The position numbers were made by a program. From NCBI RefSeq assembly GCF_003334385.1, contig NZ_QOWN01000008.1: a DNA stretch of 64,000 nucleotides; one strand, given 5' to 3'. This document shows, in pieces, positions 31,901-37,900 of the stretch (positions within the stretch are counted from its first letter, which is position 1; each line of letters opens with the position of its first letter). This stretch comes from Escherichia coli (lineage in GTDB: Bacteria; Pseudomonadota; Gammaproteobacteria; Enterobacterales; Enterobacteriaceae).

Positions 31901-34900
31901 GGCGTTTTCCGGCAATTTGTTGAGGTCGATATACGCCTGATTGCGATAATAATTGTTAACGTCAGAAACGACGGCTTTACCAAACATATTGGTATAAACA
32001 GCAGCCCCGTTACCTTCCACCGGAACATCGGCAACGCCATCGGCATCAATCAGCAGGCGTGTCCCGCCCATATTCTGGGTACGGTGAAGTGCGCCGCCGT
32101 GGGTAGTAAGCGTTGCGCCGCCCTGTAACGACAAGCCCGCAGAGGTGTATTGCCCTTCATGGTAGTTCGCACTGAGGTCAACCTGCGCCAGCGAACCATC
32201 ATGGCTGTAGTAGCCATCAACGCTGGTGTGTTTGTCACTGGTGCCGATGTTCAACTGATAGTGAGTCGCGTCATCGACACGGCTAAAATAACCGACCTGG
32301 CTGCTGTCCGTCCCACTGCCATAGTTGCCGTTATAGCTAACGGTACTGTTGTCGCCCCACGGCATACTGAGCGAAATGTACATGCCCTTATCCGCCCGGT
32401 TGTCATACTCGTAGCGGTAGCCAGTCAGGGAAACGCTCATATTACGAATGCTGCCCATATTGAAATAGTGGGAGAGCATGATGTTGTAGTTTGTCTGCTC
32501 CTCACGATCCCAGTAGGTATGGCGGGTATAGTTGAGATAAACCGAAACACCCGCATCGCGGAAGTTCTGGTTATAAGTGGCGGTGTACATCTCTTTGTCG
32601 TTGCCCGTACGGACCATTTCGCTGTCACTGGCATCCAGATACTCGCTCATGGTCATAAAGTTCTCTTCCGAGAAGCGATATCCAGCGAAAGTGACGCGGC
32701 TGTTGAGCTGGTCAAAGTCTTTGGAATAACTCACACGGAAGGAGTTACCGTCCAGCGAACCTTTGCCATAAGCGGTGTCTTTATCCAGTTTGGTATGCGA
32801 ATGAGTAACATCAAACGCGACCGCGCCGAAGGTAGACAAATCGCGACCGACGCCCAGCGCCGCAGACTGATAGTTTTCATCACCCAGCGCACCGCCATAT
32901 AACGACCAGCCGTTAGCGATGCCCCAGGAGGCTTCAGCACCAGAGAAAAATCCCCCCTCGACATGGTGGCCCCACTCTTGCGGACGTCCCATCATGATCT
33001 TATAGCGAACCTGGCCTGGGCGAGTGAGGTATGGCATCGAGGCGGTGCTGATGTCATATTCCTGCACCTGGCCGTTCTGTTCTTCAATGCGAATATGCAA
33101 CGTACCGGAGACGGAATCACCAAGATCCTGAATACGAAACGGTCCAGCCGGAACCTGCGTTTCGTAAATCACACGCCCCATCTGGCTGACGGTCACTTTT
33201 GCTGTGGTGTGTGCCACGCCGGAAATGTCTGGCGCGTAGCCGCGCAGGTTGGGAGGCAACATTTGATCGTCAGTGCTGACACTGCCACCAACATAATTAA
33301 AACCGTCGAAAATATCGGAATTGAGGTAATCTTCCCCCAGCGCCAGTTTGGCTTTTAATGACGGTAACGCCCGCCAGGCATAATAGCGACTCCACTCCCA
33401 TTTTTTTTGTGTGTCATCGCCGCCAAATTCATCGTCATCATCATTACTGCGCGTATGTTGATAGTTGGTCTGCCAGTCAGCGCGCATACGCCATGGCCCC
33501 AGGTTAACCCCGACCGTCCCGTTGCCGCTGATCTCGTTACTGTCATCGCCGCCATTTTCTTCGTGTCGTGTTTGCGCAGTGATGCTGTAGTCCGCAATGA
33601 TCCCGGAGATGCCATCATCCCAACGAGAAGGTGGATCCCAGTCGGGCCAGGTATATTCGAGGTAAGCCTGCGGTAGTGAAATGACTAATGCGGACTGGCT
33701 TAAATCAGCCTTAATTTCCATGCCTTCCAGTTGACCGGGCTTCAGGCATTTACCATCGTGGCTCCATTGCAGATTTTTCGCCACGTCTTCTTTTAAACCA
33801 AACTGCGCCACCAGTTCCGGTGTCAGACAAGCATAGCTTTTGCTAACGTCATCTTCACCAGCATACCAGTAAATATCGTACTCTTCCGCCAATGGCTGTT
33901 TATTTAGTTGAACCTGTAAATTGTATTTTCCGGGCTCAACATACCCCTGGCTGGAAAAACGCTTCAGATCAATTTTTGTGTCGCCTTTTAATTCCAGAAA
34001 ACGGGAATCAAACTGAATGTCGTCTTCAGCCCAGACACTGCTATAACTCCCTGACATTGCCAGCGCAATGCACCACGGAAGAATCCGTAATCGAAAAAGA
34101 GAATGGTCAGGCATACACGTTTTTATCCGTTTTTATTCTTGTTCGGTCAAAATCCATTTAAATACCCCATAGCAGTGTCGCTATGGGGGTATGCCTTACA
34201 GGTAAGTAATCTGGAAGGTGGTATTTGCTTCGAAATTACCCAGATCTGGCGCATCAGCTGCGCCGACCAGCCAGGCTTTAAAGTTCAGAGTCTGCTTCGC
34301 TTTGCCTTTATTAGTGGCAGTATCTTTCACGATTTTCTGGTCAATACCCATGCCGCTTTTGTAAGAGGTACCCAGAGAGTCACCGATCGCCAGGCTAACA
34401 TTGTTAAATGCCGCACCGGTATCGGTATTGAAAATGGTGTAATAATTGCCGCTATTTGCAGAAGAAACGGTACCAGTAAAGGTAGTGGTCATTGTTTCCT
34501 GAGTATCAAATACGCAATCTTGCAGGCGAATCTGGAAATTTTTCGGCGTGGTGGTGCCGTTATTTTTCAGTTTTTCGGCACCGATATCACCCATATCAAC
34601 TTCCAGTTTGTGATCGTCCGGAACGATAGAACACACTGAGTCTTCAATGGTGCCGTAAAAACGTGCAGTACCGTTGTTACCCGCAGCGATTGTTGCCGTA
34701 GAGGTGAACGCGCCCATCACCATTGCCGCAGCAATAGCTGTTTTAACAAACTTACTCATTATTTGTCCTTAAACTATAAATAATTAAAATATAAACATTG
34801 CAATACATTGATTCAGTCAATAGCCAATGTTTATACCCAGCCATTGAATACGGCATGCGATCCAAAAAAACAGGTCGTAAAAAATGTATTCGTTGGTGTG

Positions 34901-37900
34901 GGGTCGAATAGTGATGTTTTCACTCCCCTGATTCAATTTAATTTTACTAATGAGTAAATGTAGATTTAATTAATATATTGATAGGGGAAAGATTATCTTA
35001 AGGATCTTCTAAAAAAACACGAAATATATATTTAGAAAAAACAGGAAGCATATCAACAATGAATGCCAATAGCTTAAAAAACAAACAACGAACATATAAT
35101 GCGATTGGCATTAACCCGCTTTTGTCGATATAATATATAAACACTATAGCCAGAATTTAATCAAGTTTCAATTACGTCCTGCCTGATTATTCAACTCTAT
35201 TTTCTCCATTATCTGTATTAATAAATGATAATGAGTGTCAAACAGACATTATTCATTTCAACATGTAACTTTGGGCAAAATCAAGATACGCGCAGAAGAA
35301 TACTTTCCGAATGAAAGTTAAAGGTGTTTTATTTATAGATGGGGAGAGTCTTCGATAGTAGTGAGGTTGACAGATATCCGCTGCCTGATGAGCAATTATG
35401 CCCAATGAATCTACCTCATTGGGCATAATTTGGAACTCATCAGATAGCTTTTGCCATCTTCAGATTACACGGGCTCATCTGCCAGTTGAATGTGCCGTTT
35501 CCGCTTTCATCAAGCGTTACGCTGGCAATGGCCGAGGTGGTAAACATAGGCGGCGTTTCGCCCGGACATAACTCGGCAACCAGATACCCGACTAACGGTA
35601 AGTGAGAGATCACCAGTACCGAAGCAACACCTTCATTGGTCAACGCCTGCAAATAGGCACTGACCAGACCAACATCGCCGCAGGGCGTTAACTCCGGCAG
35701 AACTTCTGCACTGGAAGGCAGGTTCAGACAATCCCCTACTTCTTCCAGTGTTTGCTCGGCTCGCAGGAACGGGCTCACCAGAACGCGTTCGATTTCCACT
35801 TTTTGACCTTTCAGCCAGTTCGCCATCAGGCGAGATTCGTCACAACCATTAGTGGTCAGAGGACGAACGGAATCACTGGCGGCATCGAGGGCTGCGTCGC
35901 CGTGACGCATGATAAAAACTTGCATATTGCACCGCTTTTGTTAACCAGATTCGCCCGTTTTCTTTCATCTGAAACCAGAGAAAGAAAACGGTGGCCGGCA
36001 TTGTGCCTTATCCATTCACCGAATGAAACGCTGTTTTTTACCTCAATGGCGTAAGTATAGTCAATATGCGTTTACATTTTGACCAACACTCCGCCATTCA
36101 GCGCGGATTCATATAGCTTTGACCTTCTTATTGCAGGTCAGTTGCAGTTGTTTTCCAAAAACTTTCCCCACGCGCGCCCATCTCGACCAAACGCTCGCAA
36201 GGGGTAAAACGGGAACCATACTGCGTGGCAAGTCGTTGCATTATTGCAACCACTTCGCCCGCGCCGAGAGAATCGATATAGCGGAACGGTCCACCGAGAA
36301 ATGGCGGAAAACCAATGCCAAATACCGCGCCAATATCCCCGTCACGCACGCTACGGATAACCTGCTCATCAACACAACGTACTGCTTCATTCAGCATCAA
36401 CATCACACACCGTTCAGCAACCTGCGGTGCGGAGATTCGCCCCTGCCCTTGTGTGCCAATCAGCGGGTAAATGGCGGGATCGACCTGTTTTTTGCTTTTA
36501 CGCCCTTTCTGACCATAAAGATAGAAACCCCGGCCATTTTTTCTGCCTTTGCGATCGTCGTTCAAAATTGAAGAAACAACATTTGCAGGCGCGCTAAAAC
36601 GTTCTCCATAAGCGGCTTCCAGTACAGGAATAATTTTAGTCCCGGTGTCGATTCCTACCTCATCCAAAAGTTGGATTGGGCCTACCGGAAAACCAAATTT
36701 CACTAGCGCGGCATCAATGTGCTCTACCCGTTCACCTTGGGTCAACATGCGGATAGCTTCATTAATGTAAGGCGCTAAGATGCGATTGACGTAAAAACCG
36801 GCTTTGTCACGCACGACAATTGGCGTTTTACCCTGTTTTTTCGCCAGTTTTACTGTGGTAGCGATGGTTTGCGCCGATGTCCCCGCATGAGGAATAATCT
36901 CCACCAGCGGCATTTTTTCCACCGGACTGAAGAAATGCAGGCCGATAACTTGCTCAGGTCGCGTGGCGTGAGCGGCGATATCACCAATCGGTAAAGATGA
37001 CGTATTCGAAGCAAAGATGGTATGAGCGGCGCAATTTTGCTCAACTTCCGCCACCATCTGTTGTTTCAATTCGAGATTTTCAAACACCGCTTCAATAATC
37101 AGATCGCGATGGGCAAAGCCGCGATAGTCCGTCGTTCCGGAGATTAATGCCAGCTGTTTGTCACGTTCGCTGGCTTTGAGATGACGACGGCGAACTTTGC
37201 CCTCCAGCTGATCCCAACTGTACTTCAGCGCATGATTTATGCCCTGCGGGTTGATATCTTTAATTCTGACCGGAATCCCCGCTTTACAAGCAGTGACATA
37301 AGCAATACCGCCGCCCATCAAGCCACCACCTAAAATCCCCACGCTGTTTAATGGCGCAGGCGGCGCATCACTGCCGGGATCTTTCTTCACGTCCGTACTG
37401 GCAAAAAAGATACTACGCAGCGCCTGCGATTGTGGCGTCATCGCCAGTTCGCCAAACGCCCGAGCTTCGGCGTCATAACCGCTGCTGGTGCCCTGCGCTA
37501 ATCCCGTTTCAACAACCTCCAGGATGCGTTCTGTCGCCGGATAATTGCCTTGAGTTTTGTGTTCTGTTTTCTTGCCGACCATTTTGAACAGCAGCGCACG
37601 ACCTAACGGCCCCGCCAGAATACGCTCGCGTACAGGTAGAGGGCGGGAAGATGGGCGCTCCTTCTTTGCCAGCTCAACAGCGGCTTCCAGCAGAATGGAG
37701 TGCGGAACAACGTCATCCACCAGCCCCAGCTTTAATGCCTGTTTCGCCCGAAGTTGTTTTCCGGTGAGGATCATCTCTAATGCTGTGCTGACGCCTATCA
37801 GACGCGGTAAACGCTGGGTGCCGCCTGAACCGGGTAACAATCCAAGTTGTACTTCAGGCAAACCGAGCACCGTTTTAGGATCGTCAGTACAAACGCGACC

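What the first reader, a model, noticed from the sequence alone, without database searches (positions are those of the whole stretch)
34760..35439. 680-bp strongly AT-rich non-coding leader upstream of the fimbrial operon
The yfcV-sixA gap is unusually long for this gene-dense window and is visibly AT-rich with many A/T tracts, typical of curved DNA silenced by nucleoid-associated proteins such as H-NS. It probably holds the fimbrial promoter and its control sites; no ORF of 60 aa or more lies in it.
Basis: inference. Interest (0 to 1): 0.3.

Follow-up and report, generated by a model that had tools for sequence, protein, structure and literature searches.

The report
H-NS-silenced promoter region of yfc fimbriae
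The long AT-rich gap between sixA and yfcV in this E. coli window is the already-published, H-NS-silenced "promoter island" that keeps the cryptic Yfc fimbrial operon switched off, so the finding is real but ordinary.

Summary
Window 34760-35439 is a 680-bp gap between sixA and yfcV, both on the - strand. It has 32.1% GC against 49.0% for the window and is the lowest-GC 680-bp stretch in 64 kb. It contains no ORF of 60 aa or more, no Rfam match and no ORF conserved between alleles.

- The gap is one of the 78 listed E. coli "promoter islands" and is recorded as H-NS-bound.
- Genomic SELEX places sigma-70 RNA polymerase and H-NS in this spacer. The predicted yfcV promoter, TTGAAA-17-TATAGT, is my scan hit at 35171..35143.
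- yfcV rises about 11-fold (logFC 3.53) in a delta-hns strain, while sixA does not change.

The gap also holds the sixA 3' hairpin (35385-35444). It sits at a sharp mosaic boundary: sixA and fadJ are 97-98% identical between phylogroups, but the yfc genes are only 73-83% identical.

One point seems new. The best promoter-like site points away from yfcV (+ strand, 35105-35134), and it keeps its position in five divergent allele classes, whereas the published yfcV promoter does not. I tested a fimS-like invertible switch as an explanation and rejected it: no flipped orientation was found among the roughly 4,700 genomes where the test was informative.

Novelty: already known. Interest: low.

The parts
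34760..35439 (.). AT-rich sixA-yfcV intergenic region: 680 bp at 32.1% GC. It is 566-683 bp long and 26-32% GC in all allele classes examined.
34738..35226 (.). Published 'promoter island' 2453647_489 (yfcV/sixA), mapped from U00096.2 coordinates. In my own scan this stretch has the highest density of sigma-70-like sites in the window.
   Evidence: PMC3661553 Table 1. The mapping uses NC_000913.3 coordinates plus the 1978-bp .2-to-.3 offset, which is from my own knowledge. My scan found 21 sites in 34901-35400 against a window mean of about 3.4 per 500 bp.
35143..35171 (-). Sigma-70 promoter-like site TTGAAA-17-TATAGT, pointing towards yfcV. The predicted TSS is about 35136, which would give a 5' UTR of about 377 nt.
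   Evidence: Scan hit with 10/12 matches. The same hexamers were published as the yfcV constitutive promoter from RpoD genomic SELEX (PMC3946193). It is conserved only in the A/B1 and MLI106K3-type alleles.
35105..35134 (+). Best sigma-70-like site in the gap, TTGGCA-18-TATAAT, pointing away from yfcV towards the sixA 3' end. The predicted TSS is about 35141. It lies back-to-back with the - strand promoter, and their -10 boxes are crossed.
   Evidence: 11/12 matches. It keeps its position in five allele classes, with a minimum of 10.0 bits against a column-shuffle maximum of 6.4 (0 of 200 shuffles). No transcript evidence exists.
35385..35444 (-). sixA 3' hairpin, which starts in the sixA stop codon. 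It is terminator-like and may act in both directions.
   Evidence: -37.4 kcal/mol, z -6.05 on the - strand. -36.6 kcal/mol, z -6.7 on the + strand, followed by UUUUG. It has a perfect 15-nt inverted repeat. Other alleles carry different GC-rich hairpins with T-runs at the same place. There is no U-tract on the - strand in this allele, and the terminator scan found 0 hits.
34760..34870 (-). yfcV-proximal block, the only part alignable across all allele classes. It includes the Shine-Dalgarno sequence AAGGA (34766-34770) and weak promoter-like sites (CTGAAT-17-TATATT, TTGCAA-19-TATAGT).
   Evidence: The RNA fold of this stretch is not significant (z -1.1).
34763..34790 (+). Antisense promoter-like site TTGTCC-16-TAAAAT. 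Its -35 hexamer is the complement of the yfcV ribosome-binding site. It is present in all allele classes.
   Evidence: The -35 is conserved as a consequence of RBS conservation, and function is untested.
34864..35081 (+). Five A runs of 6 or more (34864-70, 34879-84, 35011-17, 35036-41, 35076-81). These are U-runs in any yfcV-sense transcript.
   Evidence: 5 observed against 1.7 expected, p about 0.012

Best explanation
The interval is the upstream control region of the cryptic yfcVUSRQPO chaperone-usher fimbrial operon, plus the 3' hairpin of the upstream gene sixA.

Proposed mechanism: the 32%-GC DNA carries many sigma-70-like sites, which is why it was published as a 'promoter island'. RNA polymerase can bind there, but H-NS coats the same AT-rich stretch and keeps productive transcription of yfcV very low. 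Expression appears when H-NS is removed or antagonised, and probably when Rho is inhibited.

What is shown by published experiments on the K-12 sequence:
- H-NS binds the spacer.
- RNA polymerase binds the spacer.
- yfcV is de-repressed about 11-fold in a delta-hns strain.

What is inferred:
- which promoter is actually used;
- whether the roughly 377 nt between the SELEX-predicted promoter and the ATG is a transcribed leader;
- whether Rho acts inside it.
For: Anatomy:
- The gap is exact, lowest in GC, and has no ORF, no Rfam family and no cross-allele coding signal.
- It has the highest density of promoter-like sites in the window.

Identity:
- The window is 99.9% identical to MG1655 over the gap, and the flanking genes are annotated yfcV and sixA.

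Literature:
- The spacer is listed as a promoter island and recorded as H-NS-bound (PMC3661553).
- An RpoD SELEX peak, an H-NS SELEX site and the promoter TTGAAA-17-TATAGT are reported there (PMC3946193). That promoter is my hit.
- An RpoS-holoenzyme SELEX peak falls in the same spacer (PMC5493296).
- yfcV has logFC 3.53 in delta-hns, while sixA is unchanged (PMC8894471).
- H-NS-bound segments are listed at this locus.
- yfcV is up after bicyclomycin (PMC10980228), after BolA overproduction (PMC4337573) and after TosR overproduction in CFT073 (PMC5956150).
- K-12 chaperone-usher fimbriae are described as cryptic and H-NS-repressed (PMC3559732, citing Korea et al. 2010).

Comparative:
- The long gap (566-683 bp) and low GC (26-32%) are retained in every allele class, although most of the sequence is unalignable between classes.
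Against: - The count of promoter-like sites is what the base composition predicts: 4 found against 4.9 in shuffles. The 'island' is therefore a composition effect, not evidence of many real promoters.
- No mapped TSS for yfcV was accessible. The published promoter is a prediction under a SELEX peak and is not conserved in the E and B2 alleles.
- The exact placement of the H-NS segments from PMC8894471 depends on an uncertain coordinate version.
- The delta-hns effect could be partly indirect.
- Korea et al. 2010, the primary reporter-fusion study, could not be read.
Confidence: 0.85

Rival explanations
1. The conserved outward-facing promoter (35105-35134, + strand) is the functional core of the region. 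It would act in one of three ways:
- as a competing or decoy promoter that excludes RNA polymerase from the back-to-back yfcV promoter;
- as a source of transcription that remodels the H-NS filament;
- as the start of a roughly 250-300-nt non-coding RNA ending at the bidirectional sixA hairpin.

This adds to H-NS silencing rather than replacing it.
For: - It is the top-scoring sigma-70-like site in the A/B1 and E-type alleles and the second-best antisense site in the MLI106K3-type and B2 alleles.
- It keeps its position while its -35 hexamer changes: TTGGCA, TTGAGA, TTGAAA and TTGTGA. In B2 it is ATGACC, shifted by about 5 alignment columns. The spacers are unrelated.
- The minimum score across five allele classes is 10.0 bits, against a column-shuffle null with a maximum of 6.4.
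- It overlaps the SELEX-defined RNA polymerase site, and SELEX cannot tell strands apart.
- The sixA hairpin folds equally well on the + strand and is followed by UUUUG. In EDL933 the hairpin is flanked by T-runs on both strands.
Against: - No transcript evidence exists.
- One E. coli TSS list (its label was not seen, and it is probably wild type) has no + strand TSS between 2441309 and 2456878.
- The sequence downstream of this promoter is unalignable between alleles and has no conserved ORF, so any RNA product is not conserved.
- Column shuffling does not preserve local clustering of conserved columns, so the test overstates significance.
Confidence: 0.2
2. The gap contains a fimS-like invertible promoter element caught in the OFF orientation, which would explain why the best promoter points away from yfcV.
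For: - The strong promoter faces away from the major-subunit gene.
- Imperfect inverted repeats flank it in several alleles: window 35004-35020 / 35324-35340 (17 nt, 76%) and EDL933 3259-3276 / 3418-3435 (18 nt, 94%).
Against: - Synthetic queries with the flanked segment inverted found no genome in the flipped orientation.
- K-12/B1 type: 0 of 3726 matching genomes cover 80% or more of the query, and the best covers 53% (flanks only). About 3,070 of these carry the full-length allele.
- B2 type: 0 of 1227 genomes cover 80% or more, and the best covers 69%.
- E type: all 429 genomes match at 88.2% identity or less, and none matches near 100%.
- About 660 genomes with other yfcV alleles were not tested.
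- There is no recombinase gene next to the operon.
- AT-rich DNA gives 15-20 such repeat pairs per allele by chance.
Confidence: 0.02
3. The gap hides an unannotated small protein gene or a known class of small RNA.
For: Several 25-57-aa ORFs exist on both strands. The region is long enough for a gene.
Against: - There is no Rfam match even at E-value 1 or below.
- Translated cross-allele matches occur only in the DNA-conserved 200 bp next to yfcV. They occur in several overlapping frames on both strands, with amino-acid identity no higher than nucleotide identity.
- RefSeq annotates nothing here in any of the genomes listed.
Confidence: 0.04
4. The AT-rich stretch is mainly an evolutionary by-product. 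It is the junction of a hyper-divergent, recombining fimbrial cassette with the conserved core genes. H-NS and RNA polymerase binding would be passive consequences of its composition, with no selected regulatory role beyond a short proximal promoter.
For: - The mosaic break is sharp and falls at the sixA stop codon. sixA and fadJ are 97-98% identical, while the yfc genes are 73-83% identical and the distal gap is unalignable.
- The number of promoter-like sites equals the composition expectation.
- IS1 and IS5 insertions and deletions in the gap are tolerated in natural isolates.
Against: - Gap length and low GC are retained in all allele classes despite sequence turnover.
- A promoter-like element keeps its position far beyond the shuffle null.
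- The H-NS dependence of yfcV expression is measured.
Confidence: 0.1

Closest known systems
E. coli 'promoter islands' (Shavkunov, Panyukov and Ozoline; 78 loci in K-12)
   Same: This very spacer is on the published list (2453647_489, yfcV/sixA). It is AT-rich, densely packed with predicted start points, bound by RNA polymerase and H-NS, and gives little transcript. It lies upstream of a gene set treated as foreign (PMC3661553).
   Different: Nothing differs in kind. Here the density of sigma-70-like sites is fully explained by base composition, and only one site shows conservation across alleles.
H-NS-silenced cryptic chaperone-usher fimbrial operons of E. coli K-12 (yad, yeh, ybg, sfm, ycb, yra, yfc; Korea et al. 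2010)
   Same: It is a core-genome fimbrial operon that is functional but silent in the laboratory. It has a long AT-rich upstream spacer, and expression rises in delta-hns. Several sister operons (yadN, yehD, ybgD, sfmA, elfA, yraH) also have promoter islands.
   Different: No dedicated regulator gene lies next to yfc. In this window yfcU is intact, whereas it is a pseudogene in MG1655.
fimS invertible promoter switch of type 1 fimbriae
   Same: A promoter lies a few hundred bp upstream of a major fimbrial subunit gene and, as sequenced, points away from it. The DNA is AT-rich and H-NS-bound.
   Different: There is no orientation polymorphism in the genomes tested, no good conserved inverted repeats and no adjacent recombinase. 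It is not a member.
Bidirectional or divergent promoters arising from -10 element symmetry in AT-rich DNA (Warman et al. 2021; named from my own knowledge, not read here)
   Same: Two sigma-70-like promoters on opposite strands share one short AT-rich core.
   Different: Here the predicted starts are only about 5 bp apart, and each -10 box lies in the other promoter's initial transcribed region. They are not two overlapping -10 boxes between starts about 18 bp apart. No TSS data are available.

Membership tests
Promoter island (Panyukov and Ozoline) | A stretch of 300 bp or more with an exceptionally high density of predicted transcription start points on both strands | tested here: met
   A simple hexamer scan found 21 sites in 34901-35400, the highest in the 64-kb window (mean about 3.4 per 500 bp). 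The spacer is listed as island 2453647_489. The authors' PlatProm algorithm was not run.
Promoter island (Panyukov and Ozoline) | RNA polymerase binds, but full-length transcript output is very low | not testable with these tools
   Literature only. RpoD and RpoS holoenzyme SELEX peaks fall in the spacer. yfcV has a low logCPM of 3.2.
H-NS-silenced AT-rich locus | AT content well above the genome average over several hundred bp | tested here: met
   32.1% GC against 49.0% for the window, and the lowest 680-bp stretch in it.
H-NS-silenced AT-rich locus | H-NS occupancy in vivo or in vitro | not testable with these tools
   Literature only. The spacer is marked H-NS-bound by Kahramanoglou and by Oshima. 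It has an H-NS genomic SELEX site. H-NS-bound segments are listed at the locus in PMC8894471, but the coordinate version is uncertain.
H-NS-silenced AT-rich locus | The downstream gene is de-repressed when hns is deleted | not testable with these tools
   Literature: yfcV logFC 3.53, P 3.3e-18, in delta-hns against wild type; sixA 0.64, not significant.
H-NS-silenced AT-rich locus | High-affinity nucleation motif (TCGATAAATT-like; motif recalled from memory) | tested here: inconclusive
   Three sites with 2 mismatches or fewer lie in the gap, one (35125-35134) on the promoter core. There are 97 such sites in the whole window, and no exact match.
fimS-type invertible promoter switch | Both orientations of the segment occur in populations or genomes | tested here: not met
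   No flipped orientation was found in 3726 (K-12/B1 type), 429 (E type) and 1227 (B2 type) matching genomes. About 4,700 of these carry an allele for which the test is informative.
fimS-type invertible promoter switch | Conserved inverted repeats at the borders and a cognate tyrosine recombinase nearby | tested here: not met
   Only imperfect, non-homologous AT-rich repeats were found. The neighbours are sixA, fadJ, fadI and the yfc structural genes.
Pap-type Dam/Lrp phase-variation region | Two conserved GATC sites about 102 bp apart inside Lrp sites, plus papI/papB-like genes | tested here: not met
   GATC occurs at 34859 and 35003, 144 bp apart. The second is absent from the O104, EDL933 and other alleles, and the first is absent from the MLI106K3 and B2 alleles. 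No papI/papB-like ORF is present.
Rho-independent terminator (sixA 3' hairpin) | A GC-rich stem-loop immediately followed by a U-tract | tested here: inconclusive
   The stem is very stable (-37.4 kcal/mol, z -6). In this allele no U-tract follows on the - strand, and the scan found 0 terminators. The EDL933 and MLI106K3 alleles have a hairpin plus T-run at the same place.

The most novel reading that the evidence does not exclude
A sigma-70 promoter that fires away from yfcV (+ strand, 35105-35134) has been kept at the same position through the turnover of five very divergent yfc upstream alleles, while the textbook-orientation promoter has not.

If it is functional, the core of this 'promoter island' is an outward-facing promoter. 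Its occupancy or transcription would set the silenced or expressed state of a fimbrial operon. It could do this by competing with the overlapping sense promoter or by acting on the H-NS filament. It would do so without DNA inversion and without a conserved RNA product.
Probability: 0.2. Interest if true: 0.4.

Novelty: already known. Interest (0 to 1): 0.12.

Why it matters
As found, it matters little. It re-identifies a documented H-NS-silenced promoter island in front of a cryptic fimbrial operon whose marker gene, yfcV, is widely used for typing uropathogenic E. coli.

Two modest points of value came from the follow-up.

First, the control region and the yfc genes form a hyper-divergent cassette with a sharp boundary at the sixA stop codon. 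Results on yfc regulation in K-12 therefore cannot simply be transferred to the O157 or B2/UPEC alleles, which lack the published promoter.

Second, the only element conserved in position across those alleles is a promoter facing the wrong way. That is a concrete and cheaply testable lead on how promoter islands work.

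Tried and rejected
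- Rfam scan of 34000-36200 at E-value 1 or below: nothing.
- Intrinsic-terminator scan: 0 hits.
- Small-ORF conservation across four allele classes: only multi-frame matches in the DNA-conserved proximal 200 bp, so not coding.
- A/T-tract excess: runs of 4 or 5 or more equal the composition expectation, and only runs of 6 or more are enriched. Phasing is weak.
- Excess of promoter-like sites over shuffles: none, 4 against 4.9.
- Invertible switch: rejected with three synthetic inverted queries.
- Dam/Lrp (pap-like) control: the GATC sites are not conserved.
- CRP site at 34911-34925: the half-sites are spaced one base too short (read), so I dropped it.
- RNA structure in the proximal 126 nt of a putative leader: z -1.1, not significant.
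- Korea et al. 2010 and Thomason et al. 2015 are not held in the library.
- The Cappable-seq TSS table of Ettwiller 2016 is truncated before 2.45 Mb.
- Singh 2014 has no supplements held.
- The Forrest 2022 TSS tables are truncated before the delta-hns columns and all - strand entries reach this locus.
- Exact mapping of the Forrest H-NS segments: the best-fitting offset is 1200-1550 bp relative to U00096.2, so placement is only approximate.

Full report
**What is there**

The window is E. coli of the K-12/phylogroup-A type. The gap is 100% identical to strain SCU-104 and 99.9% identical to MG1655. On the - strand the gene order is fadI, fadJ, sixA (35440-35925), the gap (34760-35439), yfcV (34196-34759), yfcU (31469-34114) and the rest of the yfc chaperone-usher operon.

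- The gap is exactly 680 bp with GC 0.321, against 0.490 for the window. It is the lowest-GC 680-bp stretch of the 64 kb.
- The median gap between long ORFs is 73 bp. The only larger apparent gap contains the short gene yfcZ.
- No ORF reaches 60 aa, and no Rfam family matches even at E-value 1 or below.

Runs of 4 or more are at expectation. Only runs of 6 or more are enriched (5 against 1.7, p about 0.012), and all are A on the + strand. Phasing at 10.5 bp is weak.

**Anatomy**

1. At the sixA end, a very stable hairpin (35385-35444) begins in the sixA stop codon.
   - It scores -37.4 kcal/mol with z -6 on the - strand, and is equally stable on the + strand, where UUUUG follows.
   - In this allele no U-tract follows on the - strand, and the terminator scan is empty.
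   - Other E. coli alleles have different GC-rich hairpins with T-runs at the same place. It is best read as the sixA terminator, possibly bidirectional.
2. The middle of the gap has the highest density of sigma-70-like sites in the window (21 in 34901-35400). This equals what dinucleotide shuffles of the region give (4 against 4.9 at the tool's threshold).
3. Two sites stand out and lie back-to-back.
   - On the - strand, TTGAAA-17-TATAGT at 35171..35143 points towards yfcV. Its predicted start is about 35136, which would give a leader of about 377 nt.
   - On the + strand, TTGGCA-18-TATAAT at 35105-35134 points away from yfcV, with a predicted start of about 35141.
   - Each -10 box lies in the other's initial transcribed region, so two polymerases could not occupy both.
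4. The 110-160 bp next to the yfcV ATG, including the Shine-Dalgarno sequence AAGGA (34766-34770), is the only part conserved across all alleles.

**What is already known**

- Panyukov and Ozoline list 'yfcV(-)/sixA(-) 2453647_489' among 78 promoter islands and mark it H-NS-bound in the Kahramanoglou and Oshima data (PMC3661553). With the NC_000913.3 coordinates and the .2-to-.3 offset of 1978 bp (my own knowledge), this maps to window 34738-35226.
- Shimada et al. found an RpoD-holoenzyme genomic-SELEX peak and an H-NS site in this spacer, and predicted the promoter TTGAAA-17-TATAGT (PMC3946193). That is the - strand hit.
- An RpoS-holoenzyme peak lies in the same spacer (PMC5493296).
- Forrest et al. 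report yfcV at logFC 3.53 (P 3.3e-18) in delta-hns against wild type, with sixA at 0.64, not significant (PMC8894471 Supplementary Data 2).
- The same paper lists three H-NS-bound segments at this locus. Their coordinate version is unclear. Calibration against the promoter-island list gives an offset of 1200-1550 bp, which places them on window 34430-35380.
- yfcV also rises after bicyclomycin, a Rho inhibitor, after BolA overproduction, after TosR overproduction in CFT073 and slightly after CsiR induction, with a ChIP peak placed in the spacer.
- Wurpel et al. summarise K-12 chaperone-usher fimbriae as cryptic and H-NS-repressed, citing Korea et al. 2010. I could not read that primary paper.

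**Comparative picture**

Among 5426 complete E. coli genomes, nearly all carry yfcV at this locus, but in very different alleles:

| Identity to the window's yfcV | Genomes |
|---|---|
| 99% or more | 1124 |
| 95-99% | 1960 |
| about 84% (O157 type) | 430 |
| 60-80% (B2, F and others) | 1884 |

- Only 3531 genomes match the gap at all, and the O157 type matches only the proximal 161-281 bp.
- Pairwise comparison shows a sharp mosaic boundary at the sixA stop codon. sixA and fadJ are 97-98% identical in every comparison. yfcV and yfcU are 73-83% identical, and the distal gap is unalignable.
- Every allele class nevertheless keeps a long gap (566-683 bp) of 26-32% GC.
- No ORF is conserved between classes. 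Translated matches occur only in the DNA-conserved proximal stretch, in several frames.

**The one unexpected result**

I scored all alleles with a sigma-70 weight matrix.

- The published sense promoter is kept in the A/B1 and MLI106K3-type alleles (TTGGGT-17-TATAGT) but not in the O157 or B2 alleles.
- The outward-facing + strand promoter is present at the same alignment position in all classes, with different -35 hexamers and unrelated spacers:

| Allele class | + strand promoter |
|---|---|
| A/B1 | TTGGCA-18-TATAAT |
| O157 (E) | TTGAGA-17-TATACT |
| O145 | TTGAAA-16-TATAAT |
| MLI106K3 type | TTGTGA-17-TATAAT |
| B2 | ATGACC-17-TAAAAT (shifted by about 5 columns) |

- The minimum score over five classes is 10.0 bits. 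In 200 column shuffles of the alignment the maximum was 6.4. The best conserved sense-strand site (5.2 bits) is not significant. The shuffle does not preserve local clustering of conserved columns, so the significance is overstated, but the pattern is clear.

A strong promoter facing away from a fimbrial subunit gene suggested a fimS-like switch in the OFF state, and imperfect inverted repeats do flank it. I tested this by searching all complete genomes with synthetic sequences in which the flanked segment was inverted.

- K-12/B1 type: no genome matched in the flipped orientation. 0 of 3726 covered 80% or more of the query, and the best covered 53%.
- B2 type: 0 of 1227 covered 80% or more, and the best covered 69%.
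- E type: all 429 matched at 88.2% identity or less.

With no recombinase nearby, the inversion idea is rejected. Pap-like Dam/Lrp control is also not supported, because the two GATC sites are not conserved.

The sequence downstream of the outward promoter is not conserved, so any function would be at the level of polymerase occupancy or transcription through H-NS-bound DNA, not an RNA product. I found no transcript evidence. One TSS list, probably wild type, has no + strand start between 2441309 and 2456878, and the delta-hns lists were truncated.

**Verdict**

The finding is real and correctly interpreted, but it is a published feature of E. coli K-12: a promoter island and H-NS-silenced upstream region of a cryptic fimbrial operon. 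Novelty is 'already known' and interest is low. The residual lead is the position-conserved outward promoter, with about 0.2 probability of being functional and moderate interest if it is.

Noticed in passing
window 31469-34114 (-): yfcU, the fimbrial usher, is an intact 881-aa ORF in this window. In MG1655 it is annotated as a pseudogene with an internal stop. The window is therefore from a K-12-like strain with a potentially complete yfc operon, not from MG1655 itself.
   Followed up: partly
window 35440-35444 (boundary); 32000-37500: There is a sharp mosaic boundary at the sixA stop codon. sixA and fadJ are 97-98% identical between phylogroups, while the gap, yfcV and yfcU are only 73-83% identical or unalignable. 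The whole yfc cassette exists as at least four deeply divergent allele classes at one chromosomal site.
   Followed up: partly
window 35119-35124; 34408-34996; L009, L010, L003: Natural isolates carry IS elements in the gap:
- IS1 is inserted at 35119-35124 in isolate F1267. This is inside the promoter core and separates the published promoter from yfcV.
- IS5 replaces 34408-34996 in strain MS15047.
- IS1 replaces yfcV plus most of the gap in strain PCP06171.
- Another IS1 case appeared as hit H111.
   Followed up: partly
window 42021-43420, 51911-52590, 62121-62800, 63271-63950: Other strongly AT-rich stretches (32-38% GC) also have high promoter-like density. The first lies over yfdF, next to the published yfdF/mlaA promoter island. 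The published list also has two islands in and beside yfdI that should fall near window 48300-49600.
   Followed up: no
window 34763-34790 (+): An antisense promoter-like site, TTGTCC-16-TAAAAT, has a -35 hexamer that is the complement of the yfcV ribosome-binding site. It is present in all allele classes, and in the B2 allele it reads TTGTCC-16-TATAAT. It would read back through the whole upstream region.
   Followed up: partly
window 34790-34800 / 34825-34835: A perfect 11-nt inverted repeat (TATAAACATTG / CAATGTTTATA, 24 nt apart) lies in the conserved yfcV-proximal block. It could be an operator or a leader hairpin. The RNA fold of the surrounding 126 nt is not significant (z -1.1).
   Followed up: partly
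window 35394-35430: Because the sixA hairpin is a perfect palindrome, two mirror-image 57-aa ORFs start inside it on opposite strands, both beginning MPNE. This is an ORF-finder artefact worth knowing about.
   Followed up: yes
L002 3602-3634, L005, L004 (sixA 3' ends): Each allele class has a different sixA terminator hairpin sequence at the same position. The EDL933 version is flanked by A-runs and T-runs on both sides, which makes it a canonical bidirectional terminator. The K-12-type version is longer but lacks the U-tract.
   Followed up: partly
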